Of a DNA stretch of 64,000 bases, positions 1 through 45,002 are shown one piece after another. The notes below the pieces were generated by a model. That model searched no databases, had not been told where the DNA came from, and saw nothing but the letters and a program-made list of their open reading frames with translations. The stretch spans positions 835,497-899,496 of the forward strand of contig MFJV01000001.1 in assembly GCA_001780985.1 (NCBI GenBank), given 5' to 3'. Numbering within the stretch: position 1 is the first letter of the stretch; the number at the start of each line of letters is the position of its first letter. Both the position numbers and the translations under genes were made by a program. This stretch comes from Candidatus Gottesmanbacteria bacterium RIFCSPLOWO2_01_FULL_43_11b (lineage in GTDB: Bacteria; Patescibacteriota; Microgenomatia; UBA10105; UBA927).

Positions 1-990
1 AGAAAAGAACTTTTTAAAAATAAAAAAGCACTCATTTTTCCGGCCCTTGTGGGACTTCTTACTATCGCACCACTCATTCGTGTGTTTTCAGATCCAAATA
101 CTTTAACGAGATTACGAGGAACAAGTTCACTTGCCGATGAGACAGCGTTACTTTCAAGAAGCGTTCAAAAACTGGAAGACGATGCTGTAAACGGCAATCC
201 GTGGGGAATAATCTTCGACAACCGTCGGATTGTTTGGGCAAAAACCCTTCTCGACGGATATTTATCTCATTTTTCATTCCGTTGGTTGTTTCTTACGGGT
301 GATAATCCACGTCATCACGCCCCTGGCATGGGACTTGTTTACTTATGGGAATTACCATTCCTGTTGTGGGGAATGTATACTTTATTCCATAATGGAGGAA
401 AGCAATCAAGATTTCTCTTCGGCTGGTTTCTCATTGCTCCGATCGCCGCATCTCCGACAACAGAGCTGCCGCACGCCATCCGCTCCATTGTGTTTCTCCC
501 AACTTTCCAGATTTTTACCGCCATCGGACTTATCGAGCTTAGTAAATATAGAAAAATAATTCTCCCACTATTGGCAATAATTGCATTAAATATTTTCTAT
601 TTCCTTCATCTATATTTCGGGCATACAAATAATGAAGTTTCGCAATTTTGGCAATATGGATATAAACAAGCGGTGGAGTATGCAAAGCTTCATAAGGGTG
701 AATACAAAAAAATAGTGGTATCCACGGAACTGGAGCAACCGCATATGTTTTTCCTTTACTTTTTGAAATACGATCCCGTTCTGTATCTTACAGAGGGGGG
801 GACCGCGTCCGGTGGATTTGAGGAAATGCGGAATAGATTTGATATATACGAATTTCGTCCGATTGACTGGGGGAATGAACTGCGGGACGGATCGACTCTT
901 TATATCGGAACTCCGTATGAAATTGCCGACAGTGTTATTTATACGATTTATTATCTAGATGGGGCAGAGGCCATTCGGATTGCGAAGTGA
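1..990 (+). CDS. GT-C-fold integral membrane glycosyltransferase (PMT_2/ArnT-like), 5' end outside window
   Basis: Frame is open from nt 1 (the ORF-track Met at 49 is internal). Aligns by eye with residues ~200-481 of the next gene, sharing RWLFTG..LxYxWELP..PHAxRS..GGTxSGGF..FEFRPIDW blocks. Tandem paralog. Confidence 0.75.
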   Translation, partial: RKELFKNKKALIFPALVGLLTIAPLIRVFSDPNTLTRLRGTSSLADETALLSRSVQKLEDDAVNGNPWGIIFDNRRIVWAKTLLDGYLSHFSFRWLFLTGDNPRHHAPGMGLVYLWELPFLLWGMYTLFHNGGKQSRFLFGWFLIAPIAASPTTELPHAIRSIVFLPTFQIFTAIGLIELSKYRKIILPLLAIIALNIFYFLHLYFGHTNNEVSQFWQYGYKQAVEYAKLHKGEYKKIVVSTELEQPHMFFLYFLKYDPVLYLTEGGTASGGFEEMRNRFDIYEFRPIDWGNELRDGSTLYIGTPYEIADSVIYTIYYLDGAEAIRIAK

Positions 991-2432
991 ATATGAACAA
1001 ATGGGTATTATTCGGAATACTTGCCCTTGCAACTGTACTGCGGTTCTTCTCATTGTCTTCCGTCCCTCCAAGCCCGTCCCTCGACGAGGTTTCCATTGGG
1101 TATAATGCGTATTCCATTCTTCAAACGGGCAAAGATGAGTACGGGACAGCGTTTCCCATACTCCTTCGAGCCTATGACGACTGGCGGCCAGCACTTTACG
1201 TATACCTTGTCGTTCCGTTCGTAAAGTTATTGGGTCTTACAGTATCGGCAGTACGATTACCATCCGTTATTGTCTCAGTTCTAACTGTATTTCTGACGTA
1301 CGAACTTTCAAAAAAACTACTTAAAAAAGAATCCATTGCTCTGTTTGCGGCGCTACTTTTGGCTATCTCGCCCTGGCATATTTATATTTCCCGACTTGGG
1401 CATGAAGTAAATCTGGGACTTTTTGCAGGCGTTGCGTCTAGCTATTTTTTCATTCAAAAAAAATTCTTTCTGTCTTCACTATTATTTTCACTTGCGCTCT
1501 ACAGTTACCAAAGTCAAAAAATAGTAATACCGGTTGTCTTTATAGGTCTCGCGGTACTCTACCGACGTAAAATTATTCTTCCGGCTATTATTATTCTTCT
1601 TTTACTTATCCCACTTATCAAGACGAGTTTTGCCGAAGGAGCGTTCATTCGATTTCAAGCGACCCGTGCCTCGAAAGAATTCTTTTGGCCAAACTACATA
1701 AGTCATTTTGATCCAAGGTGGCTATTTACCGGTACGGAACGTGAAAATCATAAAGTTCCCAATCTGGGACTCCTGTATTGGTGGGAACTACCGCTCATAC
1801 TCATGGGCCTGTTTAAATTAAATAAACAGAATAGATTTTTTATTCTTCTCTGGATTTTTGCCTCCCCGCTTCCTGCCGCAATTACCACACAGGCACCTCA
1901 TGCAATGCGTTCTTATACAATGCTGCCATATCTTCAAATCATTGGAGCAGTTGGTTTTGTCTCTTTTTGGGAAACGTTTAAGAAATATCGAGTGTTTGAA
2001 GTACTTATTATCGGTTTGAGTATATTTTATTTTGGAAAAAACTATTACGGAGTATTTCCAAAAACGCAATCGGATTCATTTCAGTATGCCCTCACCCAAT
2101 CTATAAACTACGTGACTTCTCACCAACAAAATTATGAGAGAGTCGTATTCTCAAACAAAGATAATCTTTATCAATCATATATGTTTTTTCTTTTTTACAG
2201 CCGATACGATCCACATCAATATCTTCTCTCGGGAGGCACGAAATCCGGCGGTTTTGCAGAAACACACACGTTGGGCAAATTTGAGTTTCGTCCGATTGAC
2301 TGGAAAAAAGATTTTTCATTGAAAAATACGCTTTTTATAGGAAATCCAAGTGATTTTCCTCCTGATGTACCTACACTTGATCAGTTTTCTTATCTAAACG
2401 GAGCTGTAGGAGTCGTTGCGGTTACACCATGA
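987..2432 (+). CDS. GT-C-fold integral membrane glycosyltransferase (PMT_2/ArnT-like), 481 aa
   Basis: About 11-12 hydrophobic helices. N-terminal loop with acidic DE..Y motif (LDEVSIGYNAY, DEYGTAFP). C-terminal soluble region conserved with the upstream paralog. ATGA-type overlap with the next gene. Confidence 0.8.
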   Translation: MNMNKWVLFGILALATVLRFFSLSSVPPSPSLDEVSIGYNAYSILQTGKDEYGTAFPILLRAYDDWRPALYVYLVVPFVKLLGLTVSAVRLPSVIVSVLTVFLTYELSKKLLKKESIALFAALLLAISPWHIYISRLGHEVNLGLFAGVASSYFFIQKKFFLSSLLFSLALYSYQSQKIVIPVVFIGLAVLYRRKIILPAIIILLLLIPLIKTSFAEGAFIRFQATRASKEFFWPNYISHFDPRWLFTGTERENHKVPNLGLLYWWELPLILMGLFKLNKQNRFFILLWIFASPLPAAITTQAPHAMRSYTMLPYLQIIGAVGFVSFWETFKKYRVFEVLIIGLSIFYFGKNYYGVFPKTQSDSFQYALTQSINYVTSHQQNYERVVFSNKDNLYQSYMFFLFYSRYDPHQYLLSGGTKSGGFAETHTLGKFEFRPIDWKKDFSLKNTLFIGNPSDFPPDVPTLDQFSYLNGAVGVVAVTP

Positions 2433-3862
2433 AAATATACCTTTTGTCAGCCATATTGCTCCTGGGATTTTTTTTGCGTGCGCAAGAGACCCTGTCCGGT
2501 AATTTTCTCTTTCTCAAAGACCAGGGAAGAGATATGCTTGCGGTCAAATCTGTAGTTGTTGATAAGAAACCTACTCTCATCGGGCCATACACAGGCTTTC
2601 GGGGTGTTTTTCAGGGGCCTTTGTATTATTACATTCTTGCATTACCATTTGTAGTCTCTGGTGGAGACCCTCGTGGAGTAATGTGGCTCATGTTGACAGC
2701 GAGCATGTTAAGTATTCCTTTCGGGTATATTGTCGGCAAAAAATTCTTTTCTGAAACAACGGGGTTATTTACCGCATTCCTGTTTGCAGTCTCTCCGGCG
2801 GCGGGGGCAGCGGCAACGTTTATCTGGAGTCCGTTTTTTATTTTTCCTCTTGTATCTGCCTGGCTTTATTTTTTCCTCGATTGGGTTAGTTCATTTTCAA
2901 AAAAATCATTTGTCATTATGGTATCGTTTCTCGGGCTTATGTTTCATTTTGAAACCGCGTTTGCCGCTCCGTTTACACTTACAATCTTTATTTTTTGTTA
3001 TTTCTTAGCACGAAAAAATAAGCATTCATTTTCCGTGTTACTCTTTTTTGTAATTCTTGCAATTTTTCTTTCTCCGCTTCTTCTTTTTGATTTTAGACAC
3101 GATCATATTACTCTCAAATCAATAGTAAGTATATTGCAGGGAATGGATGTGGGTTTAGGAGGAGGGGAACCATACGGTAAAATAGTCCGCGACCATATCA
3201 TTCGATTCATACTTAACCTTAAAGCAACATTCATTGCGCAGGATTTAGTAGCAAATATATTTTCATTCGTTTTTCTTTTTTCAGCCGTGTATTACATGAT
3301 TGCCGGGTTATCAAAAAAAATAAAATTACTTGTTCTCATTCCACTGGTTCTCTTTACCATATATTTATTTTTCCCATACCAAATTTGGGATTGGTACGTT
3401 ATCGGATTGTTCCCCATATATTTACTCCTGGGTGGGATATTTTTAACTAACAGACGTTGGCGACTCATGAGTATGATTGTTGTTATTGTACTTCTGAGCA
3501 ACGCCTATGTGAAACTCGATAATTTATACCGTTACCCGGATCATGGAGGAACGGCGAAACTTAGAGGTAAGCTTGAGGCAATAGATGCGGTGTATAAAGA
3601 TGCAAATGGTCAGCCTTTTTCACTGGAAGTTTTTACACCGGTAGTACTTACTGACGCTTACGATTATCTTATTTGGTGGTATGGATTAAAAAAATATTCG
3701 TACACCCCAGAAGATCGTGGAATGCTATATCTTTTGATTGAATCTGACCCATCAAAGCCTTGGAGTTATAATGGATGGATTGAGACTGAAATTAAAATAG
3801 GATCGACAATCGACACATATGAACTTCCGTCCGGATTTATAATACAAAAACGAAAGATATGA
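2429..3862 (+). CDS. GT-C-like polytopic membrane protein (putative glycosyltransferase), 477 aa
   Basis: Hydrophobic multi-TM N-terminal ~350 aa followed by soluble C-terminal ~120 aa. Start overlaps upstream stop (ATGA). Architecture resembles ArnT/GT83 but motifs are weaker. Confidence 0.65.
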   Translation: MKIYLLSAILLLGFFLRAQETLSGNFLFLKDQGRDMLAVKSVVVDKKPTLIGPYTGFRGVFQGPLYYYILALPFVVSGGDPRGVMWLMLTASMLSIPFGYIVGKKFFSETTGLFTAFLFAVSPAAGAAATFIWSPFFIFPLVSAWLYFFLDWVSSFSKKSFVIMVSFLGLMFHFETAFAAPFTLTIFIFCYFLARKNKHSFSVLLFFVILAIFLSPLLLFDFRHDHITLKSIVSILQGMDVGLGGGEPYGKIVRDHIIRFILNLKATFIAQDLVANIFSFVFLFSAVYYMIAGLSKKIKLLVLIPLVLFTIYLFFPYQIWDWYVIGLFPIYLLLGGIFLTNRRWRLMSMIVVIVLLSNAYVKLDNLYRYPDHGGTAKLRGKLEAIDAVYKDANGQPFSLEVFTPVVLTDAYDYLIWWYGLKKYSYTPEDRGMLYLLIESDPSKPWSYNGWIETEIKIGSTIDTYELPSGFIIQKRKI

Positions 3863-5421
3863 AACTACTTATTGTTTTTTCTCTTATTCCGCTTTTCAAT
3901 CTTCTTACACCGGGTCTTCCGGTTACGCACGACGGGCAGGACCATGTTGCACGCATTGCTAATTTTTACCTGTCACTCTCAGAAGGAAATATGATTCCCC
4001 GCTGGGCAGGTAATTTAAACTGGGGGTATGGACACCCGATCTTGATGTTCCTGTATCCGTTGCCTTCCTATGTTGCTTCATTATTCCATGCACTCGGACT
4101 ATCATTCGTTGATTCTACTAAATTGGTTTTTGCCCTTTTTTATGTAGCAAGTGTACTGGCAATGTATGTATGGCTGCGAAATCACTGGGGAAAGATTCCG
4201 GGATATGTTGGCGCAATACTCTATGGTTTTGCTCCTTATCGATTCGTTGATCTTTATGTACGTGGAGCAATCGGCGAACATGTTGCGTTTGTTTTTCTGC
4301 CGCTTGTTCTTTTGGGTTTATACAAAAAATCTCCAATGCTTACAACATTCAGCATGGCCGGGCTCATTCTTTCTCACAATGCAATAAGCCTCATGTTCCT
4401 GCCAATAATTGCACTTTATATTTTGTTTCTGAAACGAGATACTCGCTTCTTATTTTTTGCATGCTACTCCTTGTTCTTGGGTTTTCTTGTTTCTGCATTT
4501 TTTTGGATACCTGCGTTTTTTGAAGGGAAGTATACCCTACGCGACATTGTTACAAAAGGAGAATTTGGTGATCGATTTGTTCCTTGGAGTTGGTTTTTTT
4601 CATCACCCTGGAACTATGGCGGAGGAAATCAACTGACGAAAGAATTGGGGATAACGCAGTGGCTTTCAGTTGTCATTTCACTTTTTTACCTCCGGAAAAA
4701 ACAAAATCGAGTTGTAATTCTGACACTACTTCTGATATTATTTATTGTTCTGTTTCTTATGACCCAGGGATCAGCCTTTATTTGGAATACAATATCACTT
4801 TTGCAGAAATTTCAATTTCCCTGGAGACTTCTTAGCGTTGCAGTATTTATCACATCAGTTCTCGGCGCTTTCGCCGTTGCTCATCTTCCAAAAAAAACAA
4901 TGGTAGCCGTTATATTAGTTGGTTTATCCCTCATGACAACCTCCCACATGTGGAAAGCAAAGGAATACACAGTCAGACATGAATCATTTTACGCGGGTAT
5001 CTATGAGAGCACAACTGACACGGGTGAGAGCAGTCCAATCTGGTCTGTGCGCTTCATGGAAAAAAGAGCGGCCGCCGCTATAGAAGTTATCGAGGGAAAT
5101 GCGGATGTTGAATTGGGTCGACGTACGACAACGTCGAGAGAATATAAAGTAAAAACTCAAACACCGACGAGGCTTGCTGAAAACACGTTATATTTTCCCG
5201 GTTGGCGGATATCGGTAGACGGACAACCAGCTGGAATTGAATTTCAAGATCCGAACTACCGGGGACTCATGACATTTCAGCTCGAGAAGGGAGATCATCA
5301 GGTCATAATAGACTTTGTCGAAACAAAATTACGAATGGCAGCTAATTTAATTTCCGTTGCGGGACTTGTACTTCTTTTATTCTGGTATGCCAAAATTCGT
5401 TCTCATACTGCTTCTGTCTAG
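3859..5421 (+). CDS. PTPS-related/YfhO-like integral membrane protein (putative GT-C glycosyltransferase), 520 aa
   Basis: N-terminal THDGQDHVARI..RWAGNLNWGYGHP motif typical of the 6-pyruvoyl-tetrahydropterin-synthase-related membrane family (PF10131-like). C-terminal beta-rich YFPGWRISVDG region. Paralog at 12090..13592. Confidence 0.7.
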   Translation: MKLLIVFSLIPLFNLLTPGLPVTHDGQDHVARIANFYLSLSEGNMIPRWAGNLNWGYGHPILMFLYPLPSYVASLFHALGLSFVDSTKLVFALFYVASVLAMYVWLRNHWGKIPGYVGAILYGFAPYRFVDLYVRGAIGEHVAFVFLPLVLLGLYKKSPMLTTFSMAGLILSHNAISLMFLPIIALYILFLKRDTRFLFFACYSLFLGFLVSAFFWIPAFFEGKYTLRDIVTKGEFGDRFVPWSWFFSSPWNYGGGNQLTKELGITQWLSVVISLFYLRKKQNRVVILTLLLILFIVLFLMTQGSAFIWNTISLLQKFQFPWRLLSVAVFITSVLGAFAVAHLPKKTMVAVILVGLSLMTTSHMWKAKEYTVRHESFYAGIYESTTDTGESSPIWSVRFMEKRAAAAIEVIEGNADVELGRRTTTSREYKVKTQTPTRLAENTLYFPGWRISVDGQPAGIEFQDPNYRGLMTFQLEKGDHQVIIDFVETKLRMAANLISVAGLVLLLFWYAKIRSHTASV

Positions 5422-6607
5422 TTTTCTGCTATTTTGGCGATTAGGAGACACGCATCTATCCAATTGGGATGAAGCGTGGTATGCGGATGTTTCCAGAACT
5501 ATAGCAGAGAAGGGTAACGTTTTGACCCCAACCTGGAACGGACAACCTTTCCTTGAAAAGCCCCCTCTCCATTATTGGTTGACCGCTATTTCTTACAGAA
5601 TTTTTGGCGATTCAGAGTTTTCAGCCCGGTTTATATCTGCTGTTGCCGGCATTGGCACGACGCTTCTTGCGTATAAATTTGGCGGTTTATCATCGGCACT
5701 CATCTTGCTCTCAACACCGGCATTCCTGTGGCGAGCGCGAACGGGAAATCTCGATAGCCTTCTGACTTTTCTTATTTTTCTCTCTGCCGTTTATCCGAGC
5801 GGAGCAGCATCAGGGCTCGCATTTTTGACAAAAGGTTTTATAGGATTTTTCTACCCGTTGTTTTACCACAGGAGAAGCTTGATTTTGGGTTCAATTATTG
5901 CAGGTGTATGGTTTTTGGTGAGCTACGTTGTCAATGGACAAGTATTCTTACAACAATTTTTTGCACAGCAGGGAGAAAAAATTGGGTCTATACGGTTTTC
6001 ACTTGATTACATCATACATCTCAAAACAGGACTTAAGCTTTGGTTTATTATTTTTTTTCCGGCGATGTATTTTGTAAGAAAAAAACTTAAAAACTTTGTA
6101 TTGTTTGTATGCCTTTTTCTTTTGTTTCTTTCATTTTTGCAGGAGAAGAGCACGTGGTTTCTCATGCCTGTTTATCCTTTTATAGCACTTATTGTTGGTC
6201 GGTGGATACCAAAACGATATCTACTTGCTGTATTGATAATAGCTATTTTTCAGATCATCTACTTTCGTTCGGAATACTTTGTTCCTGATGTTGCAGCTGA
6301 CGAGGCTCGCGTATCTATTGCCTCGCAACAACTTACAAAGGAAGACGATATTATTTATCTAACGCACTATTACTATCCCACGGCAGTCTACTATAGCAGA
6401 CGTAAAACCTATGCTGTCTATGCCGAAAACCCCTCCGTTACCTGGTGGATTTTACCCAAAAGCTCGTGGGGCGAGATACTTGGGGGTAGTCGGATATTTA
6501 TCAATACTACCCGCGATGATCTTAAGGAATTGGAGCGTCAATTTCCTACGATTCGCTTCGAAACGCTTTTTTCTTCAGGTGATAAGCTCCTCGTGAAAAA
6601 GGTATAA
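5357..6607 (+). CDS. ArnT/PMT-family GT-C glycosyltransferase (4-amino-arabinose transferase-like)
   Basis: Motifs NWDEAWYADV and EKPPLHYWL in the first periplasmic loop. Multi-TM. True start may be the internal Met near 5390 (MPKFVLILLL), which still overlaps the upstream gene. Confidence 0.8.
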   Translation: MRDLYFFYSGMPKFVLILLLSSFLLFWRLGDTHLSNWDEAWYADVSRTIAEKGNVLTPTWNGQPFLEKPPLHYWLTAISYRIFGDSEFSARFISAVAGIGTTLLAYKFGGLSSALILLSTPAFLWRARTGNLDSLLTFLIFLSAVYPSGAASGLAFLTKGFIGFFYPLFYHRRSLILGSIIAGVWFLVSYVVNGQVFLQQFFAQQGEKIGSIRFSLDYIIHLKTGLKLWFIIFFPAMYFVRKKLKNFVLFVCLFLLFLSFLQEKSTWFLMPVYPFIALIVGRWIPKRYLLAVLIIAIFQIIYFRSEYFVPDVAADEARVSIASQQLTKEDDIIYLTHYYYPTAVYYSRRKTYAVYAENPSVTWWILPKSSWGEILGGSRIFINTTRDDLKELERQFPTIRFETLFSSGDKLLVKKV

Positions 6608-6617
6608 TAAGATAAGT

Positions 6618-7379
6618 ATGAGTCTTTCGGTGGTTCTTGCGACATTTAATGAGGAAGATCGGATTGGGGAGTGTTTAACGTCAATTAAAGATATTGCTGA
6701 TGAGATTGTGGTTGTCGACGGGAGGTCGACGGATCGGACAGCGGAGATTGCAAAGAGTTTTGGGGCAAAAGTAAAAGTTGTTGAGAATGAGTATATTTTT
6801 CATATTAACAAACAAAAAGCAGTTGATTTAGCCACAAAAGATTGGGTCCTCCAGCTTGACGCGGACGAAATTGTATCAGTCGAACTGTTAAGTGAAATAA
6901 AAACGGCAATAAAAAGTAAGCAATATAATGGTTATTACATTCCCCGTAAAAACTATTTTCTAGGTCACCGGATGAAAAAAGGTGGACAATATCCCGATCC
7001 AGTCATTAGACTCTTTAAAAAAGGAAAGGGCAGATTTCCTCAAAAAAGCGTTCATGAACAAATTATGATAGACGGAAACGTAGGAACATTAAAAAATGAA
7101 CTTCTTCACTATCCATACCAAACTCTTTCAGAATACTGGGAGAAAGCTGTTCGCTACAGTCATTTAACCGCACGAGAAATGGCACAAGCCAACGCAAAAA
7201 AGAATTTAGTTACCGCACTCAATTATTTACTCCTTAAACCCACATTTACATTTCTTAATCTTTTTATCCGCCATCAAGGATTTGTTGACGGAATATACGG
7301 ATTTTTATTTGCGTACTTATCAGGGATTCAATTACAAATAGCGCTCTTTAAATATTTTTATGGAAAAAACCTCGACTAA
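6618..7379 (+). CDS. GT2 family glycosyltransferase
   Basis: VVLATFNEEDRIGECL...VVVDGRSTDRTAEIA...LQLDADE (DxD). Amphipathic, hydrophobic C-terminus. Confidence 0.85.
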   Translation: MSLSVVLATFNEEDRIGECLTSIKDIADEIVVVDGRSTDRTAEIAKSFGAKVKVVENEYIFHINKQKAVDLATKDWVLQLDADEIVSVELLSEIKTAIKSKQYNGYYIPRKNYFLGHRMKKGGQYPDPVIRLFKKGKGRFPQKSVHEQIMIDGNVGTLKNELLHYPYQTLSEYWEKAVRYSHLTAREMAQANAKKNLVTALNYLLLKPTFTFLNLFIRHQGFVDGIYGFLFAYLSGIQLQIALFKYFYGKNLD

Positions 7380-8073
7380 ATCACACTGGAGAGATTACTG
7401 GAATAGATCCGATCACCAACCTGTCGTTACCCATGAGGAGTTGCTTGCCAATTTACTGGCAACAACATCTGTTAAGGGTAAAAAAATATTGGAGGTGGGA
7501 GCAGGAATGGGTGGGGACAGTATCTATTTATCAAAAAAAGGAGCACACGTCACCGTTGTTGATTTTACAAAAGAGGCGCTTGAAAAGATTAATGAAAATG
7601 CAAAAAAAGCAAAAGTAACGATAAAAACTGTTCAGGCTGATGCAAGAAACATGCCCTTTGCAGATAACACATTTGATATTATTTTTCATCAGGGATTACT
7701 CGAACATTTCAAAAATCCCAAAGAACTCCTCATTGAGCAGAAACGCGTTCTGAAATCCGGAGGGTATCTGCTTGTTGACGTACCGCAGCGGTATACCACC
7801 TACACAGTTAAAAAACATCTTCTCATGATATTAGGCAAGTGGTTTGCCGGTTGGGAGAGAGAATTTTCCGCAGGAGAATTGGAGCAATTATTAACAGACG
7901 AAGGGTATAGCGTTGTTCGTTCATACGGATGGGGCTATTATGGGAAGCTCCACAATATCCGTTTCGCTAAATTAGGAGCATGGTATGAAGCTATATGGAA
8001 GTTTATTGAATCGACCCGTATGAAGCTCTATCTCAACTGGTGTATAGGAGTTATTGTTCAAAAGATTGCATGA
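7360..8073 (+). CDS. class I SAM-dependent methyltransferase
   Basis: ILEVGAGMGGDSIYL (motif I) and DIIFHQGLLEHF (Methyltransf_11-like). Confidence 0.85.
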   Translation: MEKTSTKSHWRDYWNRSDHQPVVTHEELLANLLATTSVKGKKILEVGAGMGGDSIYLSKKGAHVTVVDFTKEALEKINENAKKAKVTIKTVQADARNMPFADNTFDIIFHQGLLEHFKNPKELLIEQKRVLKSGGYLLVDVPQRYTTYTVKKHLLMILGKWFAGWEREFSAGELEQLLTDEGYSVVRSYGWGYYGKLHNIRFAKLGAWYEAIWKFIESTRMKLYLNWCIGVIVQKIA

Positions 8074-8516
8074 AATATATTTTCATACTGACTCTTTTTT
8101 TAGTTTTTGCTACTCATGCTTTTGCTTACACTCTCCCTTACCCGTCGTACATGCCCGGACACAAGCTCTACAAAATTTCCCGATTTCTCGATCAGGCTAA
8201 AGCATGGTGGTATTGGGGAGTGAAATCAAAAATAAAGTATCATGCGTCTTTAGCTGACAAATATCTGGTTGAGTCAAAAACACTTTTTGAATATCAACAA
8301 TATCTGCTTGCGGTTGATGCACTCAGAAGATCAAATGAGCAGATTACGGCGATTTCTTCGAGATCAGGGGAACAGATGAAAGCACATACGGACGTCCTCG
8401 AACGCTTAAAACAAATGCTTCCGGAAGAATTTCTCTGGCAACCGGAAAAAGAGACACCTACACGATTGCCGCTACATATACTTCTTGACGAAGCGCTATT
8501 TATTCGAAATGAATAA
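8071..8516 (+). CDS. small secreted DUF5667-like protein (signal peptide + helical domain)
   Basis: Start MKYIFILTLFLVFATHAFA is a signal peptide; the ATG overlaps the upstream stop as ATGA. PGHKLYKISRFLDQAKAWWYW...ADKYLVES block is shared with the paralog at 30141..30689. Confidence 0.6.
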
Positions 8517-9597
8517 ACTTATAATTACTCTTTTGCTTTCCTGGATTGTTTTTTCTCTGGGAAATATTGTATTTAATCCTGTTAATCAATACTTTAACCG
8601 ATACTTCAACGAGAACGTCTATCAGAATTTAGAGCGTTTATACAATAATTCTCAATATAGGCAAAAGAATCCGATATCAGTTATCGCAGATGAAATTGTG
8701 TTTCGATACGCAGCAGCGGCATACATCCGCGGAGCAGACCCGATTCTTATAAACTCAGAACATACTCCATTAGGGAAGTACATGATAGGTTTGTCATTTT
8801 TATGGTTTCAAAACGATGGCGTTGCAATAGTTTTTTTTGCCGTATTATCGCTTTTTACACTCTGGCTACTTGGGAAACAGATATTTAAGGATACAACATG
8901 GGCATTAGTTCCTGTTGCGTTATGGGTAACTGAGCCGCTTTTTCAAAATCAGTTACGCGTTACGCCGCTACTGGATATTATTCAACTTCCATGGATTCTT
9001 TTGGCTTTGTATGCTTTTATAAAAAAACGATTTTTATTGACAGCGATATTTCTTGGCTTAGTTGCTGCAACAAAAAGTGTTGTCCCTTCAATGCTTCTCG
9101 TGTTTTCTTTTTTCCTTTTTTTTGCATTCAAGAATAAAATTCGTGAGTTCTTTCGCTTTGTGCCCTGGTTATTTATTAGTTTTTGTATCTTAGCTCTTTC
9201 CTATACAAGGACGTTTCTTAACGGTTACTCGTTGTGGGATTTTTTGGGTTTTCAAAAATGGATTCTCACTTACCAGCAGAGTAAACTCATTTTCCCGTTT
9301 TCTTTTTGGAAGCTTATGTTTCTCAACCAGTGGCAGACCTGGTGGGGAGATATGGCGGTTCACAAAGCGGAAGATTGGTTCTGGACCTGGCCGATTATCG
9401 TACTCGTTCCTTTTATTCTATTAATCATGAAGAGGAAAAAATTTAACGACGGTATGCTCGTTTTGGTTCTATGGGTTTTTGTTTACGAGATTTTTTTGTC
9501 TTCCGGGATAGTTGTAACCAGATTCCTCTTGCCGCTTATTCCTATTTTATATATCCTATCAGTGCAATTTGTCCGCGAAATTATTCATAGATCATGA
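8509..9597 (+). CDS. polytopic integral membrane protein, unknown function (possible GT-C)
   Basis: Start MNKLIITLLL overlaps the upstream stop by 8 nt. About 9-10 hydrophobic segments. No recognisable catalytic motif. Confidence 0.6.
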   Translation: MNKLIITLLLSWIVFSLGNIVFNPVNQYFNRYFNENVYQNLERLYNNSQYRQKNPISVIADEIVFRYAAAAYIRGADPILINSEHTPLGKYMIGLSFLWFQNDGVAIVFFAVLSLFTLWLLGKQIFKDTTWALVPVALWVTEPLFQNQLRVTPLLDIIQLPWILLALYAFIKKRFLLTAIFLGLVAATKSVVPSMLLVFSFFLFFAFKNKIREFFRFVPWLFISFCILALSYTRTFLNGYSLWDFLGFQKWILTYQQSKLIFPFSFWKLMFLNQWQTWWGDMAVHKAEDWFWTWPIIVLVPFILLIMKRKKFNDGMLVLVLWVFVYEIFLSSGIVVTRFLLPLIPILYILSVQFVREIIHRS

Positions 9598-10646
9598 TAT
9601 TTGCATACATCATCGCACTCGTTTTTTTAACTATTTTTAGTTTCGGCTTTATAGATGCAAATTTCTCGGTGAAAATACTTCCGGCTGTATTTGAATTCAT
9701 TCATTCAAACCGACCGCTGGCAACGTATCTTTATGTTGGGGCAGTAACGTATCTTTTTATTTTTTACTTTTGGATTTTGCGACAAAACAGAAATATTTGG
9801 AAATTGATTTTTATAAGTTGCGCTATTTTGTTTTTTTCATTTCCTGCATTTTCGTACGACATTTTCAATTACATGGCCACGGCAAAAGTTGCGTACTTAT
9901 ATAAAGAGAATCCATACGTAGTGATGCCTATTGAATTTCCGAATGAGCCGATGCTTTCTTTCCTTCATGCTGCCAACAAAGTCGCTCTCTATGGGCCGAC
10001 CTGGATTGCATTGACGTATATACCTCATATTATAAGCGGAGGGAACATACTCGTTTCCATCTGGGCCTTTAAAGCACTTGCCGCAATCTTTTATCTTGGT
10101 GTATGTTGGATTCTTTGGAAGTTGGGTGGCAACAGCGCATTAGCTTTTTTCGCATTAAATCCGTTGGTGATTACGGAGACACTCGTATCAGGCCATAACG
10201 ACATCGTTATGATGTTTTTTGGTTTACTTGCGTTTTACTTTGCAAAAGCGAAACGGTGGTGGTTAGGGTTATTTGTACTTGTTCTTTCGATATTTGTTAA
10301 AGGAGCAACAATTATTTTATTGCCACTTTATTTTTTGAATATTCCCTGGAATAAGAAGTGGTTATGGGCTGCAGCGGGTATGTTTATAGTATTTTTATTA
10401 ACTCCGCTACGAGAAGAACTATATCCTTGGTACTTCATTTGGCCGCTTACCTTTATTGCATTACTCTCCAATACCCATATATTACGGTATCTCTCATACG
10501 GATTTTCCATAGGTCTCCCGCTACGATTTGCACCGTTTATTTATTACGGAGATTGGAGTGGGGTAGTGCCGATCATTAAAAAAATAGTATCTTCCTTACC
10601 ACCTGCCCTTGCACTGTTTTTTTATGCGAAAAAAAGGAATCGTTAA
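9594..10646 (+). CDS. polytopic membrane protein, GT-C-like (DUF2029/GT87-like?)
   Basis: 350 aa, almost entirely hydrophobic. GHNDIVMMFFGLLAFYF..KGATIILLPLYF resembles mannosyltransferase-type GT-C cores. ATGA overlap with the upstream gene. Confidence 0.55.
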   Translation: MIFAYIIALVFLTIFSFGFIDANFSVKILPAVFEFIHSNRPLATYLYVGAVTYLFIFYFWILRQNRNIWKLIFISCAILFFSFPAFSYDIFNYMATAKVAYLYKENPYVVMPIEFPNEPMLSFLHAANKVALYGPTWIALTYIPHIISGGNILVSIWAFKALAAIFYLGVCWILWKLGGNSALAFFALNPLVITETLVSGHNDIVMMFFGLLAFYFAKAKRWWLGLFVLVLSIFVKGATIILLPLYFLNIPWNKKWLWAAAGMFIVFLLTPLREELYPWYFIWPLTFIALLSNTHILRYLSYGFSIGLPLRFAPFIYYGDWSGVVPIIKKIVSSLPPALALFFYAKKRNR

Positions 10647-12093
10647 TCTTACACTTATCATTTTGTTTTTTGTTTTTTCTTTGTGGCTCTTTGGAAAATC
10701 ATTCGGATACGAAAATGGTGAGTTTCGAATAGCAAGACATCAAGTGGGTGATTTTGGTCTGCATTTAGGGCTCATCAGGTCTTTTTCATGGGGTCAAAAT
10801 ATCCCTCCCCAGTCTCCATTCTTCCCGGGTCCCCCGTTACCGTATCATTACGCAACGGATATGGCTGCAGGACTTCTTGAGCGGGTGGGAGTTCGTATAG
10901 ATCATGCCCTTAACGGCATAAGCGTCATATTTTTTACTTTGCTTCTCTTTCTTATTTATAACTTTAGTAATTTACTGTTTGGCTATTCACCCATACAGTC
11001 ACTTATTGCGGTAGTACTATTCCTTTTATCGAGCAATCTCACATTCGTTACATTTCTAAAGCAGAGTACATTTGCCGAAGTATGGCGGCTTCCTGACTAT
11101 ATTTATAAAGGCCCGTTCGATGGATCTGTTATTTCAATATTTTCGACTCTTAACCCACTCCTTAACCAACGTCACCTCATCGTTGGGCTTGCTCTAAGCC
11201 TCCTTATTTTCACGCGTATCCAAAAGCAAAAAATTTCAACGATTGAGCTTATTTTACTTGGCATACTACTGGGAATTTTAACGAGAATTCACACACTCGT
11301 TGCCTTCGGAACCGCTATCGTTGTAACAGGCATGACGATTTACAAAAGCCGTTTCATGATTTTATTGTCTGTAGCTTTTCTTTTTGCACTGCCGCACCTC
11401 CGACTTTTTTTTACAAATGACTCTCGATCACTTGTCGATTTCTTTCGTCCGGGATTTTTAGCCGCCGCGCCGGTTACCATATATTCATGGTTAACTTTTT
11501 GGTGGCAAAACTTAGGATTGACACTTATTTTTCTACCCATAGGTGTTTTCCTTGCCAACAGTAAACAAAAGAGAGTGTTTTTTTCTTTTCTCCTTCTATT
11601 TATTCTCGCGAATATTTTTCAATTCAGTTACCGTATCGAGCACAATCATTCGCTCATCACAATGTTTTTAATTATTTCAAATATGTTTGTCGCATACGCG
11701 ATTATGCGTTTACCCAAAATATGGACAGTCATGTGTTTATTTTTTCTTACTGCATCGGGCATCCTCAATCTTATGGTCGTTAAAAATGATTTCCAATATC
11801 GTGTGGCTGATGCACCCAAGGATACGCTTATCTCCTGGATTTTAGAAAATACTCCAAAGGACTCTATTTTTCTTGCACCACAAAACCTCTATGATCCAGT
11901 TGTGCTTGCAGGGAGAAAAAACTTTTTCGGGGCAACATACTACTCTGAGGTCATGGGCTATGATATTGAAGCGAGACGAGAAGTAGCAGCGACAGGTAAA
12001 ATTGATGATGTGGACTACCTCATCTCCACGGAAAGGGAAGTTGACCGTGAACCTGTATTTACCAATGAAAAATATTGGGTATACAAACTATGA
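10624..12093 (+). CDS. polytopic membrane protein, unknown function (possible GT-C)
   Basis: Probable start MRKKGIVNL; the ORF-track Met at 10609 gives a longer overlap. Conserved-looking loop HLGLIRSFSWGQNIPPQSPFFPGPPLPYHYATD. C-terminal soluble ~100 aa. Confidence 0.55.
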   Translation: MRKKGIVNLTLIILFFVFSLWLFGKSFGYENGEFRIARHQVGDFGLHLGLIRSFSWGQNIPPQSPFFPGPPLPYHYATDMAAGLLERVGVRIDHALNGISVIFFTLLLFLIYNFSNLLFGYSPIQSLIAVVLFLLSSNLTFVTFLKQSTFAEVWRLPDYIYKGPFDGSVISIFSTLNPLLNQRHLIVGLALSLLIFTRIQKQKISTIELILLGILLGILTRIHTLVAFGTAIVVTGMTIYKSRFMILLSVAFLFALPHLRLFFTNDSRSLVDFFRPGFLAAAPVTIYSWLTFWWQNLGLTLIFLPIGVFLANSKQKRVFFSFLLLFILANIFQFSYRIEHNHSLITMFLIISNMFVAYAIMRLPKIWTVMCLFFLTASGILNLMVVKNDFQYRVADAPKDTLISWILENTPKDSIFLAPQNLYDPVVLAGRKNFFGATYYSEVMGYDIEARREVAATGKIDDVDYLISTEREVDREPVFTNEKYWVYKL

Positions 12094-13592
12094 AAAAAAT
12101 ATTCATAGCTATCATTCTTGCACTCGCACTCTGGTTTGCATCACCGTTACTTCGCCCGGGATTCATCCCCACACACGACGGGGAGTTCTCAATTATCAGA
12201 ATTTGGCAGTATTCTAAAATGATGGGAGAGGGATATCTCTTCTCCCGTTGGGCGCCGGATCTTAACAGTGGGTACGGAGTACCGCTTTTTACTTTTTACT
12301 ATCCCTTCCCGTATTTTGTCGGATCCTTATTTCATTTCGCGGGTTTATCTCTCGTTAATTCATTTAAATTAACCCTTGGGTTTTCCTACATTACAGCAAT
12401 TACTCTTTGTTTCTTATGGCTTAAAAAATTATTTAACTTTCAGACTGCCATTATCGGAACGCTGTTTTTCTTAAGTGTTCCGTATTGGTTTGTAAATCTC
12501 TATGTTCGCGGATCTGTCGGGGAAGTGATGGCAATGGCATCACTTATGGCTGTATTGGTCGGGATCGAGTATCAACGAATACGAATTGCAGCATTTGCAC
12601 TTGCCGCTCTTATTATAAGCCACAATATTACCGCATTTATATTTTTGCCGCTTATTGTTGGGTATTCGTTCTTTCGGAAAAAAATCCCCTTTACTTATTT
12701 TGTGTGGGGGTTAGCTCTTTCAGCATTCTTTTGGATACCAGCAATTGTTGAACAGAAGTTTGTTGTTGGTTTATCCAATTTCGACTATCGGGACCATTTT
12801 CCGGAGTTAGCACAACTCCTTATCCCTTCCTGGGGAACAGGATTTTCCAGGCCGGGATGGCCGGCTGATGAAATGTCGCAACAATTAGGAGTTGGTGTTG
12901 TTGCACTTTTGGCTTTGGCGCTCGTGTACTTTAGGAAAATTCTCACTTGGCCGCTCCTTGTAAGTGTCTTAATATTGTTTTTGATGCTTGAGGCTTCCAT
13001 TCCTGTTTGGAATATCATTCCTGCGCTTCAATTCATTCAGTACCCCTGGAGATTATTGAGCGTATTTATTCCTCTCTCGGCATACTTAGGTGCATACATT
13101 GCGGGTCGAAATCGTGTTGTAGCTACCGTTTTAGCTGTTATAACGCTTTTGGTGAGCGTGCGATATGCTCAGCCTGTTATTTATGAATCACGAGGTGACG
13201 AGTATTACCTATCGAAGCGTGAGTTTACTGATGGTACGACGAGTGTAGGAAACAGCTTTTCGACGCTCTGGCTCACGTGGCAAAAAGAACGGCCCGCTCA
13301 AGTTTTTGAAAAGGGCCAAGGTGAAAGTGTGATTGCAAATATTTCGTATTACCCCGGATGGACTGTGGTAGTCGATGGAAGGAAAACAGAAGTTAAGGAA
13401 GCAAACGGCAGAATTCAGTTTGAAGTGCCGCCGGAAGCTCAAAACTATGAACTTCGGTTCCGAGAAACTCCACTGAGACTAGTAAGCGACGGAATTTCGA
13501 TTGTGAGTTTGTTTTGGCTCATAGGTTCGGGTATACTCGTGTCTAGGTATGCACATAGCAATAGACGTCTCTCCTCTCGAAAGCGGGCATAA
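12090..13592 (+). CDS. PTPS-related/YfhO-like integral membrane protein, paralog of 3859..5421
   Basis: PTHDGEFSIIRI..RWAPDLNSGYGVPLF and YYPGWTVVVDGRKTEV mirror the motifs of the first paralog. Start MKKIFIAI overlaps the upstream stop (ATGA). Confidence 0.7.
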   Translation: MKKIFIAIILALALWFASPLLRPGFIPTHDGEFSIIRIWQYSKMMGEGYLFSRWAPDLNSGYGVPLFTFYYPFPYFVGSLFHFAGLSLVNSFKLTLGFSYITAITLCFLWLKKLFNFQTAIIGTLFFLSVPYWFVNLYVRGSVGEVMAMASLMAVLVGIEYQRIRIAAFALAALIISHNITAFIFLPLIVGYSFFRKKIPFTYFVWGLALSAFFWIPAIVEQKFVVGLSNFDYRDHFPELAQLLIPSWGTGFSRPGWPADEMSQQLGVGVVALLALALVYFRKILTWPLLVSVLILFLMLEASIPVWNIIPALQFIQYPWRLLSVFIPLSAYLGAYIAGRNRVVATVLAVITLLVSVRYAQPVIYESRGDEYYLSKREFTDGTTSVGNSFSTLWLTWQKERPAQVFEKGQGESVIANISYYPGWTVVVDGRKTEVKEANGRIQFEVPPEAQNYELRFRETPLRLVSDGISIVSLFWLIGSGILVSRYAHSNRRLSSRKRA

Positions 13593-14568
13593 AGTTCGCG
13601 GAATCGGTTCATATACAGACCAATTGATTAAGGCTTTAAAAGAATACAAAAGTAAACATTCGTATTCTTTTTTTACTCGAGGACAAAAAGTACCCGAAAG
13701 TGCAGATTTGGTCCATTATCCTTACTTCGATCCTTTTTTCTTAACATTGCCACTTATTAAAACTAAACCTACGGTTGTTACGGTTCATGATCTTATTCCT
13801 ATTGCATATGCAAAATATTTCCCCAAAGGACTACGAGGAGAGTTTAAATGGGAAGTTCAGAAACGTTCTCTTATGAAAGCAAAACGCATTATTACAGATT
13901 CGAAGGCTTCAAAGAATGACATTATAAAATTCATAGGATATCCGGAAAGTTACATCGATGTTGTGTACCTTGCGCCTCCGAAAACTTACCAAAAGATAAA
14001 AAGTAATATACAGCTGCCAAAACAATATGTTCTTTACGTGGGAGATGTAAACTGGAATAAAAATATTCCGGGTCTTATTGACGCATATTATATAATTCAA
14101 AAAAAATTCACTGATACAAAACTTGTTCTTGTCGGTAAACAATTCCTCAATACAACGATTAATGAAACACAAAACATTAATAATCTCATTCACAAATACA
14201 ATTTAGAAAAAAATGTTGTAATGCCGGGATTTGTTAAAGACGAGGATTTGCCATCAATCTATAGATCAGCGTCTGTCTATATACAACCATCATTTGCAGA
14301 AGGGTTTGGATTTCCAGTTTTGGAAGCCATGGCAAGCGGATGCCCGGTGGTTTGCACGAACGTCTCGAGCCTTGTTGAAATAGCAGGCCCTTCAGCTACT
14401 GTCAGTCCTAATACTCGTGATATTGCTTCAGGAATAACCAACGTATTAACGTTATCCAAAAAAGAACGGGAAGATATTGTGAAAAAAGGATTAGCTTGGG
14501 TTAAACAATTCACATGGGAAAGAACTGCAAAAGAGACAGTTACCGTTTATGAGAAAGCATTGGAATAA
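13549..14568 (+). CDS. GT4 family glycosyltransferase (Glycos_transf_1)
   Basis: EGFGFPVLEAMASGCPVVCTNVSSLVEIAG is the GT-B C-terminal donor-binding motif. Confidence 0.85.
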   Translation: MHIAIDVSPLESGHKVRGIGSYTDQLIKALKEYKSKHSYSFFTRGQKVPESADLVHYPYFDPFFLTLPLIKTKPTVVTVHDLIPIAYAKYFPKGLRGEFKWEVQKRSLMKAKRIITDSKASKNDIIKFIGYPESYIDVVYLAPPKTYQKIKSNIQLPKQYVLYVGDVNWNKNIPGLIDAYYIIQKKFTDTKLVLVGKQFLNTTINETQNINNLIHKYNLEKNVVMPGFVKDEDLPSIYRSASVYIQPSFAEGFGFPVLEAMASGCPVVCTNVSSLVEIAGPSATVSPNTRDIASGITNVLTLSKKEREDIVKKGLAWVKQFTWERTAKETVTVYEKALE

Positions 14569-15589: not shown

Positions 15590-15598
15590 TATGGTTAT

Positions 15599-17082: not shown

Positions 17083-17105
17083 TTCATGAAAATCCTTGTT
17101 TTCGT

Positions 17106-20238: not shown

Positions 20239-20244
20239 ATATAT

Positions 20245-22412: not shown

Positions 22413-22418
22413 TTTTTT

Positions 22419-28062: not shown

Positions 28063-28071
28063 ACCTCAAAA

Positions 28072-28080
28072 TGGTACAAT
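28072..28080 (+). promoter_or_regulatory. extended -10 promoter-like element (TGGTACAAT) in divergent intergenic region
   Basis: 38-bp divergent gap between the 27007..28062(-) start and the 28101(+) start. TGnTAnAAT match lies 20 nt upstream of the ATG. Confidence 0.3.
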
Positions 28081-28100
28081 AAGAACAAGAGTTACACAAC

Positions 28101-30137: not shown

Positions 30138-30140
30138 ACG

Positions 30141-30689: not shown

Positions 30690-30746
30690 AATAGAACAAC
30701 CGTATCATAGCAAACATCATTTATCAAGAGGCACATAAAGACCGCG

Positions 30747-30755
30747 TGGTATAAT
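30747..30755 (+). promoter_or_regulatory. extended -10 promoter element TGGTATAAT
   Basis: Perfect TGnTATAAT lies 13 nt upstream of the ATG at 30769, inside the 79-bp divergent gap, so the mRNA would be near-leaderless. Confidence 0.4.
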
Positions 30756-30768
30756 TCCATGTGTTTGT

Positions 30769-39080: not shown

Positions 39081-39130
39081 ATCGTGCTCGAGTATAGAGA
39101 AAACGCAAGGGCAAGTCAACGAATTGAGGG

Positions 39131-39973: not shown

Positions 39974-39994
39974 AGCGTGCTATCATAGCAGGAT

Positions 39995-44995: not shown

Positions 44996-45002
44996 TAATT
45001 TT

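What the first reader, a model, noticed from the sequence alone, without database searches (positions are those of the whole stretch)
3859..5421. Two PTPS-related/YfhO-like membrane paralogs with conserved THDG..H and PGW..VDG motifs
3859..5421 and 12090..13592 share a distinctive N-terminal THDG(Q/E)(D/F)H..RWA..L(N/S)..GYG(H/V)P motif and a C-terminal extracytoplasmic beta domain (Y(F/Y)PGW(R/T)(I/V)(S/V)VDG). This family is essentially uncharacterised. YfhO relatives glycosylate lipoteichoic acid from C55-P-sugars, and the conserved His/Asp cluster may be a metal site. Two copies inside a GT-C-rich locus strengthen the case that the family is a bona fide glycosyltransferase class.
Basis: partly seen in the sequence, partly recalled or inferred. 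Interest (0 to 1): 0.55.

Follow-up and report, generated by a model that had tools for sequence, protein, structure and literature searches.

The report
Two paralogous GT-C membrane glycosyltransferases
These are two related membrane enzymes of an uncultured groundwater bacterium (Gottesmanbacteria) that almost certainly attach sugars to a cell-surface molecule outside the membrane; they are untested members of a known enzyme class, so the finding is real but fairly ordinary.

Summary
ORFs 3859..5421 (A, 520 aa) and 12090..13592 (B, 500 aa) are true paralogs: 32% identity over 504 residues, E 9e-65. One motif detail is wrong: B reads THDGEFS, so the second His is missing.

A passes the Pfam thresholds of PF10131 (PTPS_related) and PF09586 (YfhO). 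B stays below threshold.

AlphaFold models of both (pLDDT 87 and 84) match only GT-C glycosyltransferases in the PDB, including STT3, AglB, PglB, ArnT, ALG9/12, AftA/D and DPY19. No transporter matches credibly.

Asp25 of A (Asp30 of B) is invariant in 136 of 136 aligned relatives. In a profile comparison it aligns with the catalytic "DE" Asp of PMT_2-type enzymes. All highly conserved polar residues lie on the predicted outer face.

Both genes are conserved orthologue groups across Microgenomates-type bacteria. They sit in a syntenic operon with many other GT-C, GT2 and GT4 genes and a Wzx flippase.

Most likely mechanism (inferred): transfer of a sugar from a polyprenyl-phosphate-sugar to an extracytoplasmic glycan. 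Donor, acceptor and metal dependence are unknown.

Verdict: new members of a known kind, of moderate-low interest. The conserved multi-GT-C operon is the more interesting part.

The parts
3859..5421 (+). Gene A: 520-aa THDG-type PTPS_related/YfhO-like GT-C glycosyltransferase
   Evidence: ORF and translation. Pfam PF10131 and PF09586 above cut-off. AF2 pLDDT 87.1, and top Foldseek hits are all GT-C. The public gene call is also 520 aa.
12090..13592 (+). Gene B: 500-aa divergent paralog of A, same fold
   Evidence: 32% identity to A, E 9e-65. 100% identical to hypothetical protein A3A79_04770 of a Candidatus Gottesmanbacteria MAG. AF2 pLDDT 84.1, and top 23 Foldseek hits are all GT-C.
3925..3945 (+). 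A: first external loop motif T23-H-D-G-Q-D-H29; the Asp25 codon (3931-3933) is the proposed catalytic residue
   Evidence: Asp25 is conserved in 136 of 136 aligned relatives and His24 in 132 of 136. hhalign places Asp25 on the only invariant Asp ('DE' motif) of the window's PMT_2 enzymes, prob 95.6%, E 1.1e-8.
12171..12191 (+). B: first external loop motif T28-H-D-G-E-F-S34; the Asp30 codon is 12177-12179; Ser replaces the second His
   Evidence: Translation. T28, H29, D30, G31 and E32 are invariant in the B-type alignment, and most B-type orthologs read THDGEYH.
5071..5325 (+). A: extracytoplasmic beta-sandwich domain (about residues 405-489), including YFPGW (5191-5205)
   Evidence: AF2 strands 408-486 lie between TM11 and TM12. 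P447 and W449 are near-invariant. There are weak local Foldseek matches to beta-sandwich domains of glycoside hydrolases.
13296..13463 (+). B: shorter extracytoplasmic beta domain (about residues 403-458), including YYPGW (13347-13361)
   Evidence: AF2 strands 406-457. Window B and its two closest relatives lack about 23 residues that other B-type proteins have.
6618..7379 (+). GT2 gene that directly follows A-type genes in most related genomes; in this window an extra PMT_2 gene (5357..6607) lies between them
   Evidence: Directly adjacent in 58 of 77 loci, commonly with a 19-nt overlap. Best PDB sequence matches are GmaR and SunS.
15599..16285 (+). Candidate polyprenyl-phosphate-sugar synthase (GT2, 228 aa) that could supply the lipid-linked donor
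   Evidence: Near-full-length matches to AglJ, PpgS and dolichyl-phosphate hexose transferase models, all below their equivalog cut-offs. Matches ArnC and DPMS over about residues 2-207 and GtrB (sll0501) over residues 4-118 in the PDB. 59-69% identical across loci.
9594..10646 (+). MptA/MptB-GT87-type GT-C gene lying between A and B in the conserved operon
   Evidence: Pfam GT87 24.9 bits. PF26314 MptA_B_family on the public gene call. Syntenic in most loci.
21189..22412 (+). Wzx-like flippase (Polysacc_synt/MatE) in the same operon
   Evidence: Pfam. Syntenic in many loci.
38175..39185 (-). ArnC/GtrB-type membrane-anchored GT2, a second candidate lipid-phosphate-sugar synthase
   Evidence: 190 bits to NCBIfam NF007986 over positions 7-294 of 316, below the equivalog cut-off.

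Best explanation
A and B are paralogous GT-C(A)-fold integral membrane glycosyltransferases. They belong to a THDG-motif subfamily of the PTPS_related/YfhO group.

Each has about 12 transmembrane helices, with both termini in the cytoplasm. After the first helix comes a first external loop that carries the invariant His-Asp. A small beta-sandwich domain sits outside the membrane between the last two helices.

Proposed mechanism (inferred, not shown):
1. A cytoplasmic GT2 loads a sugar onto polyprenyl phosphate. Candidates are the AglJ/PpgS/DPMS-like gene at 15599 and the ArnC-like gene at 38175.
2. The lipid-linked sugar is flipped to the outer face.
3. A and B then each transfer the sugar to a different position or acceptor on an extracytoplasmic envelope glycan. 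Asp25 (A) or Asp30 (B) acts as the catalytic base.
4. The conserved Arg, His and Lys residues of the outer loops hold the lipid phosphate.
5. The beta domain and the mobile conserved loops bind the acceptor.

A and B work as two steps of a larger, syntenic multi-GT-C assembly line conserved in Microgenomates-type bacteria.
For: Shown:
- Paralogy, E 9e-65.
- Pfam membership of A.
- High-confidence models of both proteins whose top PDB matches are exclusively GT-C enzymes.
- Asp25 invariant in 136 of 136 relatives, and aligned by hhalign with the invariant EL1 Asp of the window's PMT_2 enzymes.
- In a 12-TM model, none of the 26 residues conserved at 93% or more lie in cytoplasmic loops; 23 lie in outside loops. 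K+R density is 0.33 inside and 0.09 outside.
- The three lowest-confidence model segments (54-63, 225-232, 384-399) coincide with some of the most conserved motifs. This is what mobile substrate loops would look like.

Context:
- Both genes start with ATGA overlaps onto the upstream gene.
- Gene order is conserved across about 80 genomes.
- The operon holds GT2 enzymes related to solved polyprenyl-phosphate glycosyltransferases, a Wzx-like flippase and an MptA/B-type GT-C.
- YfhO-family enzymes are genetically required for extracellular glycosylation from C55-P-sugars (PMC5836110, PMC8035078, PMC12041528).
Against: - There is no biochemical or genetic evidence for any member of this subfamily.
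- Foldseek TM-scores are modest (0.41-0.48), and the best E-values are only about 1e-4.
- B fails the Pfam cut-offs.
- The GT2 that is adjacent to A in most genomes resembles the protein/peptide glycosyltransferases GmaR and SunS, not a lipid-phosphate-sugar synthase. A does not therefore form a classic CsbB/YfhO-type pair with its neighbour.
- No GtrA-type flippase was identified.
- The topology model was built partly with the positive-inside rule, so the charge statistic is partly circular.
Confidence: 0.72

Rival explanations
1. A and/or B are protein glycosyltransferases. They would add sugars to Ser/Thr (or Asn) of secreted or membrane proteins such as pilins or S-layer proteins. Models for this are the YfhO-family enzymes PgtC2, PgfM1 and PgfM2 of streptococci, or the oligosaccharyltransferases.
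For: - The best structural matches of both models are the oligosaccharyltransferases STT3, AglB and PglB.
- YfhO-family enzymes glycosylate Ser/Thr-rich protein regions in streptococci (PMC12041528).
- The GT2 adjacent to A resembles the protein/peptide glycosyltransferases GmaR and SunS.
Against: - No WWDYG-type motif is present in the C-terminal domain.
- Neither model scores on the STT3 Pfam family.
- No obvious Ser/Thr-rich acceptor gene lies in the operon; the conserved small DUF5667 protein is not Ser/Thr-rich.
- The operon content fits polysaccharide assembly better: Wzx, an MptA/B-like enzyme, and many GT4 and GT2 genes.
Confidence: 0.18
2. A and B act like classical YfhO and decorate a (lipo)teichoic-acid-type polymer with single sugars. 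This is the reading the first reader hinted at.
For: - A passes the YfhO Pfam cut-off.
- The architecture matches published YfhO: many TM helices plus an extracellular region between the last two helices (PMC5836110).
Against: - The external region is 125 residues here against 389 in B. subtilis YfhO (PMC5836110).
- A classical 790-aa YfhO in a related genome has a different first-loop motif, PADLLVAEYQPW.
- No teichoic-acid synthesis gene was seen among the ORFs scanned (most of the window's large ORFs).
- No CsbB-type GT2 lies next to A or B.
Confidence: 0.07
3. A and B are not transferases. They would instead be lipid-linked-sugar flippases, polymerases or ligases of the Wzy/WaaL/RodA type, or non-catalytic scaffolds.
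For: There are no activity data. Rismondo et al. speculated that YfhO might also flip its donor (PMC5836110).
Against: - No Wzy, WaaL, SEDS or transporter structure appears among the credible Foldseek hits; transporters have probability 0.2 or less.
- The invariant EL1 Asp aligns with the catalytic Asp of PMT_2 enzymes.
Confidence: 0.03

Closest known systems
[quoted passage not shown]
   Same: A scores above the gathering cut-off over residues 66-375. Many orthologs of both A and B carry this precomputed hit. The family's function is unknown, and it is placed in the GT-C clan (PMC7801869).
   Different: The Pfam match starts after the first external loop, so it does not cover the THDG motif, and it does not extend to the C-terminal beta domain. 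B itself is below threshold. No PTPS (pterin synthase) domain is present.
YfhO family (PF09586): B. subtilis/S. aureus YfhO, Listeria YfhO, streptococcal PgtC2, PgfM1 and PgfM2
   Same: A scores above the cut-off, and NCBI names some orthologs 'YfhO family protein'. The overall plan is shared: a multi-helix GT-C core plus an extracytoplasmic region between the last two helices (PMC5836110). Donors are expected to be C55-P-sugars.
   Different: - A and B are much smaller, 500-520 aa against about 790-860 aa.
- The external region is 125 residues against 389.
- The first-loop motif differs: THDG..H..R here, against PADLLVAEYQPW in a classical YfhO from a related genome.
- There is no adjacent CsbB-type GT2.
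- The host is a Patescibacteria lineage, not Firmicutes.
ArnT/PMT_2-type GT-C enzymes (PF13231) and other solved GT-C(A) structures (STT3, PglB, AglB, ALG9/12, AftA/D, DPY19)
   Same: - Same fold by Foldseek.
- The profile alignment covers the first 7 or so helices (prob 95.6%).
- Asp25 lies on the PMT_2 'DE' Asp.
   Different: - No sequence-level match to any PDB chain, even with a profile.
- Identity in the structural alignments is 10-16%.
- The motif is His-Asp-Gly, not Asp-Glu or DxD.
- The C-terminal beta domain is followed by an extra TM helix.
Mycobacterial extracytoplasmic glycan assembly lines (Emb, Aft, MptA/B, PimE with polyprenyl-phosphate-sugar donors)
   Same: Many GT-C genes act together, here including an MptA/B-family member. 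They accompany GT2 enzymes of the PpgS/Ppm1 type and cytoplasmic GT4s. The resemblance is functional and comes from established knowledge of those pathways.
   Different: This is an analogy only. There is no orthology apart from the weak MptA_B/GT87 hit, and the product and lipid carrier here are unknown.

Membership tests
GT-C(A)-fold glycosyltransferases | Polytopic membrane protein with 8-13 transmembrane helices | tested here: met
   AF2 helices and hydropathy support a 12-TM model for A, and B shows the same pattern.
GT-C(A)-fold glycosyltransferases | Structural similarity to solved GT-C enzymes | tested here: met
   Ranks 1-22 for A and 1-23 for B are all GT-C-fold proteins (GT-C enzymes plus the GT-C-like GPI-transamidase subunit PIG-U). 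Best E is 1.1e-4 for A and 3.7e-4 for B, with probability at or near 1.00 for the leading hits. TM-scores are only 0.41-0.48.
GT-C(A)-fold glycosyltransferases | Conserved acidic residue in the first extracytoplasmic loop | tested here: met
   Asp25 is conserved in 136 of 136 relatives. It is aligned with the invariant 'DE' Asp of PMT_2 enzymes.
GT-C(A)-fold glycosyltransferases | Uses a lipid-phosphate-linked sugar donor and transfers it on the non-cytoplasmic face | not testable with these tools
   Only context is available: GT2 enzymes of the polyprenyl-phosphate type in the operon, and conserved residues on the outer face.
Pfam PF10131 PTPS_related | Whole-protein score at or above the gathering cut-off (26.4 bits) | tested here: met
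   A scores 38.5 bits. B scores 15.8 bits, which is not met for B alone.
Pfam PF09586 YfhO | Whole-protein score at or above the gathering cut-off (28.5 bits) | tested here: met
   A scores 38.5 bits. B has no hit, so this is not met for B.
YfhO (characterised members) | [quoted passage not shown] | tested here: inconclusive
   The position is the same, but the loop is only 125 aa in A and about 98 aa in B (PMC5836110).
YfhO (characterised members) | Operon pairing with a CsbB/GtrB-type GT2 that has C-terminal TM helices | tested here: not met
   The neighbouring GT2 (6618-type) best matches GmaR and SunS. The ArnC-like GT2 lies 25 kb away on the other strand.
Oligosaccharyltransferases (STT3/PglB/AglB) | WWDYG-type motif in the C-terminal domain and a match to the STT3 model | tested here: not met
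   There is no WWD motif in either sequence. Neither protein hits PF02516.

The most novel reading that the evidence does not exclude
A and B may be two stations of a previously undescribed extracytoplasmic glycan assembly line, conserved in gene order across Microgenomates-type Patescibacteria.
- It would comprise at least 12 GT-C enzymes fed by polyprenyl-phosphate-sugars.
- It would build a complex envelope glycopolymer or lipoglycan, analogous to mycobacterial arabinogalactan/LAM synthesis.
- This would occur in about 1-Mb genomes otherwise considered metabolically minimal.
- The THDG..H..R first-loop motif would define a distinct catalytic variant within GT-C.
Probability: 0.35. Interest if true: 0.6.

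Novelty: new member of a known kind. Interest (0 to 1): 0.35.

Why it matters
No member of PF10131 or of this THDG subfamily has a known substrate. The profile nevertheless finds about 22,000 cluster representatives at 50% identity.

This work fixes the likely catalytic Asp and the topology. It also shows that both proteins are conserved, syntenic orthologue groups. Together these give concrete targets for mutagenesis and in vitro assays.

The 64-kb window consists almost entirely of glycan-synthesis genes (all but a few of the ORFs scanned). The longest public contig carrying B is about 1.02 Mb, so the window would be roughly 6% of the genome. That points to a heavy investment in surface glycans. 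Such glycans could matter for the envelope structure and the presumed host attachment of these uncultured bacteria.

Tried and rejected
- **PDB sequence searches.** Neither A alone nor the A-family profile matched any PDB chain, even at E up to 10. No solved relative is detectable by sequence.
- **NCBIfam.** No model matches A or B.
- **Third paralog in the window.** phmmer found none.
- **A plus its neighbouring GT2 as a CsbB/YfhO-type pair.** I rejected this as stated, because that GT2 best matches GmaR and SunS rather than lipid-phosphate-sugar synthases.
- **Transporter or flippase fold.** Rejected from the Foldseek rankings.
- **Oligosaccharyltransferase membership.** Rejected: there is no WWDYG motif and no STT3 hit.
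- **ORF 10609..12093 (just upstream of B) as a GT-C.** hhalign against the PMT_2 profile was inconclusive, probability 5.6%.
- **Literature.** Searches for PF10131, PTPS_related and Gottesmanbacteria glycosyltransferases found no functional study.
- **3D clustering of conserved residues.** Not checked, because model coordinates are not exposed.
- **THDG motif outside Patescibacteria.** Not assessed. Hit lists show only the best 120-150 matches, and the one genome-collection scan used exact motif patterns.
Full report
**1. Observation**

The window carries ORF A at 3859..5421 (+, 520 aa) and ORF B at 12090..13592 (+, 500 aa). The mechanical ORF for B starts at a TTG at 12075. BLASTP of A against B gives 32% identity and 51% positives over 504 columns, E 9e-65, covering both proteins end to end. 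phmmer against every window ORF of at least 100 aa finds no further paralog.

The quoted motifs are present. A has THDGQDH, RWAGNLNWGYGHP and YFPGWRISVDG. B has THDGEFS, RWAPDLNSGYGVP and YYPGWTVVVDG. The one inaccuracy is that the second His of 'THDG..H' is Ser in B.

B is identical to hypothetical protein A3A79_04770 of a Candidatus Gottesmanbacteria MAG from the Rifle aquifer; the longest contig carrying it is 1.02 Mb. The public gene calls also give 520 aa and 500 aa. Both genes begin with an ATGA overlap onto the stop codon of the upstream gene. They are therefore embedded in an operon.

**2. Family assignment**

A scores 38.5 bits on PF10131 PTPS_related (cut-off 26.4) and 38.5 bits on PF09586 YfhO (cut-off 28.5). 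Both matches cover only residues 66-375. B reaches just 15.8 bits on PF10131. NCBIfam has no model for either protein. No PDB chain matches by sequence, even with a family profile.

The best relatives are 54-65% identical and come from Gottesmanbacteria, Woesebacteria and 'Patescibacteria group' MAGs. B has 525 relatives. A few members are already named 'YfhO family protein' by NCBI.

A profile built from both groups finds 22,232 representatives at 50% clustering with E of 1e-3 or better, and 6,652 at 1e-30. PF10131 is listed as 'function unknown' within the GT-C clan (PMC7801869).

**3. Fold**

AlphaFold2 with family alignments gave confident models. A has pLDDT 87.1 and pTM 0.89. B has pLDDT 84.1 and pTM 0.87.

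Foldseek against the PDB returns only GT-C-fold proteins in the top 22 ranks for A and the top 23 for B. These are yeast and human STT3, AglB, PglB, ArnT, ALG9, ALG12, EmbC, AftA, AftD, DPY19 and the GT-C-like GPI-transamidase subunit PIG-U. Probabilities are at or near 1.0 for the leading hits, and the best E-values are 1.1e-4 and 3.7e-4. TM-scores are modest at 0.41-0.48, as expected for enzymes that share a core but differ in their variable modules. Transporters appear only at probability 0.2 or less. No YfhO structure turned up in these PDB searches.

**4. Active site and topology**

In an alignment of both orthologue groups, the invariant polar residues (A numbering) include H24, D25, R32, R48, W49, N54, R135, E140, H173, N174, E222, Q319, W322, R323, T385 and W449.

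Across 142 family members taken from 81 related loci:
- D25 and R32 are conserved in 136 of 136 aligned sequences.
- H24 is conserved in 132 of 136.
- H29 is conserved in 124 of 136, and window B is among the exceptions.

A profile-profile comparison with the eight longest PMT_2-type GT-C proteins of the same window gives probability 95.6%, E 1.1e-8, over the first 220 or so columns. It places D25 exactly on the only invariant residue of that set, the Asp of the first-loop 'DE' motif. From established knowledge of ArnT/PMT-type enzymes, that is the catalytic acid/base position.

A 12-helix topology model, with both termini inside, puts K+R density at 0.33 in cytoplasmic loops and 0.09 outside. 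None of the 26 residues conserved at 93% or more lie in cytoplasmic loops, and 23 lie in outside loops. The charge statistic is partly circular, because the model was built with the positive-inside rule. The conservation statistic is independent of it.

The three segments of lowest model confidence are 54-63, 225-232 and 384-399. They coincide with some of the most conserved motifs: LNWGYGHP, YTLRDIVT and TTDTGESSPIWS. I read these as mobile, substrate-gated loops; this is an inference.

The C-terminal 125-residue external region ends in a small beta sandwich followed by a final helix. [quoted passage not shown] Window B and its two nearest relatives lack about 23 residues of this domain.

**5. 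Genomic context**

The whole 64-kb window is devoted to glycan synthesis. It holds:
- nine PMT_2-type GT-C genes, one MptA_B/GT87-type GT-C, A and B, and a cryptic PMT_2-like ORF at 8485..9597 (hhalign 91%);
- nine GT2 and six GT4 genes;
- four DegT aminotransferases and about ten methyltransferases;
- sugar-nucleotide dehydratases, epimerases and dehydrogenases, and a Wzx-like flippase.

A scan of GTDB species genomes found 320 loci with the family motifs. The best 80 are all from Microgenomates-type lineages: Gottesman-, Woese- and Levybacteria.

Gene order is conserved in the following sequence:
1. several PMT_2 genes
2. A
3. GT2 (6618-type)
4. DUF5667
5. a membrane protein
6. MptA_B/GT87
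7. a membrane protein
8. B
9. GT4
10. an unknown gene
11. GT2 (15599-type)
12. Wzx
13. GT2

The adjacency counts are as follows:
- A is directly followed by the 6618-type GT2 in 58 of 77 loci, usually with a 19-nt overlap.
- A B-type gene lies downstream in 37 of 63 loci.

The adjacent GT2 best matches GmaR and SunS. The 15599-type GT2 matches ArnC and archaeal DPMS over about residues 2-207 and GtrB over its N-terminal half. An ArnC-like GT2 with membrane anchors sits at 38175..39185. Plausible lipid-phosphate-sugar synthases are therefore present, but A does not form a textbook CsbB/YfhO pair with its neighbour.

**6. Mechanism**

The best-supported reading is as follows. A and B are outward-facing GT-C transferases that take a sugar from a polyprenyl-phosphate-sugar and add it to an extracytoplasmic glycan. 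Asp25 (A) or Asp30 (B) acts as the base. The conserved Arg and His residues hold the phosphate. The beta domain and mobile loops engage the acceptor.

A and B have distinct loop motifs, which implies different steps or acceptors. Examples are YTLRDIVTKG against V-GLS/N-D/NF, TTDTGESSPIWS against FTDGTSS-GNSFST, and FQDP-YRGLMTF, which is present only in A-type proteins.

- *Shown:* paralogy, fold, conservation, topology bias and synteny.
- *Inferred:* the donor type, the acceptor, catalysis and any metal requirement.
- *Rivals:* protein glycosylation (0.18), teichoic-acid decoration as in classical YfhO (0.07), and a non-transferase role (0.03).

**7. Comparison with known families, and novelty**

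The proteins work like ArnT, PMT and YfhO-type GT-C enzymes. A formally belongs to PF10131 and PF09586.

They differ from characterised YfhO proteins in four respects:
- size;
- the length of the external domain;
- the first-loop motif, since a classical 790-aa YfhO in a related genome reads PADLLVAEYQPW;
- the partner genes.

A third THDG-type paralog exists in related genomes.

Nothing here is categorically new. These are new, uncharacterised members of a known enzyme kind. The family was already placed in the GT-C clan, so the 'bona fide glycosyltransferase' conclusion confirms an existing assignment rather than discovering one.

The more notable point is the conserved, very large multi-GT-C operon in about 1-Mb genomes. 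I found no description of it in the searchable literature.

**8. Verdict**

Interest is 0.35.

Noticed in passing
window 1..64000: Almost the entire 64-kb window consists of glycan-synthesis genes (a thymidylate-kinase-like ORF, a nucleotidyltransferase-like ORF and a few unannotated ORFs are the exceptions). It holds at least 12 GT-C genes, 9 GT2, 6 GT4, 4 DegT aminotransferases, about 10 methyltransferases, several sugar-nucleotide dehydratases and epimerases, and a Wzx. The longest public contig carrying B is about 1.02 Mb, so this is roughly 6% of the genome.
   Followed up: partly
window 8485..9597 (+): This 370-aa polytopic membrane ORF has no Pfam or NCBIfam hit. It aligns to the window's PMT_2 profile at 91% probability (E 1e-6), so it is probably a cryptic GT-C. 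It is syntenic in many related loci.
   Followed up: partly
window 10609..12093 (+), 14549..15589 (+), 50565..52028 (-): These three ORFs (494, 346 and 487 aa) have no family match above threshold. The first two are conserved in position next to B in related genomes, at 40-53% identity. The 10609 ORF has only a weak DUF6798 hit.
   Followed up: partly
window 8040..8516 (+) and 30141..30689 (-): These are small DUF5667 proteins with an N-terminal hydrophobic segment. The first is a conserved member of the operon, lying just after the GT2 that follows A. Its role is unknown.
   Followed up: no
window 36664..39185 (-): A module of a DegT aminotransferase, a WbuC-like cupin and an ArnC-like membrane-anchored GT2. 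It looks like a route to a polyprenyl-phosphate amino-sugar donor.
   Followed up: partly
window 43371..44995 (+) and 62539..63270 (+): An FdtA/cupin-like protein, a sugar C-methyltransferase (Methyltransf_13/14) and a TylF-type O-methyltransferase. This enzymology for branched or methylated deoxysugars is more familiar from antibiotic or S-layer glycan pathways.
   Followed up: no
window 6618..7379 (+): The GT2 that is almost always adjacent to A-type genes best matches GmaR, the Listeria flagellin O-GlcNAc transferase, and the SunS peptide S-glycosyltransferases. It does not best match lipid-phosphate-sugar synthases.
   Followed up: partly
L001 1..2426 (-): A related Gottesmanbacteria genome carries a third THDG-type paralog (534 aa, 37% identical to A). 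Next to the operon it also carries a classical 790-aa YfhO with a different first-loop motif.
   Followed up: partly
loci L003-L081 (record titles): Many contigs with clear Microgenomates-type gene content are titled 'uncultured Gammaproteobacteria bacterium ... binchicken'. This is probably a taxonomic mislabel in the deposited records.
   Followed up: no
proteins P0241, P0243, P0255, P0370: Some database representatives are 1,100-3,300 aa long and match the family profile in 2-4 separate stretches. They may be tandem GT-C fusions or merged gene calls.
   Followed up: no
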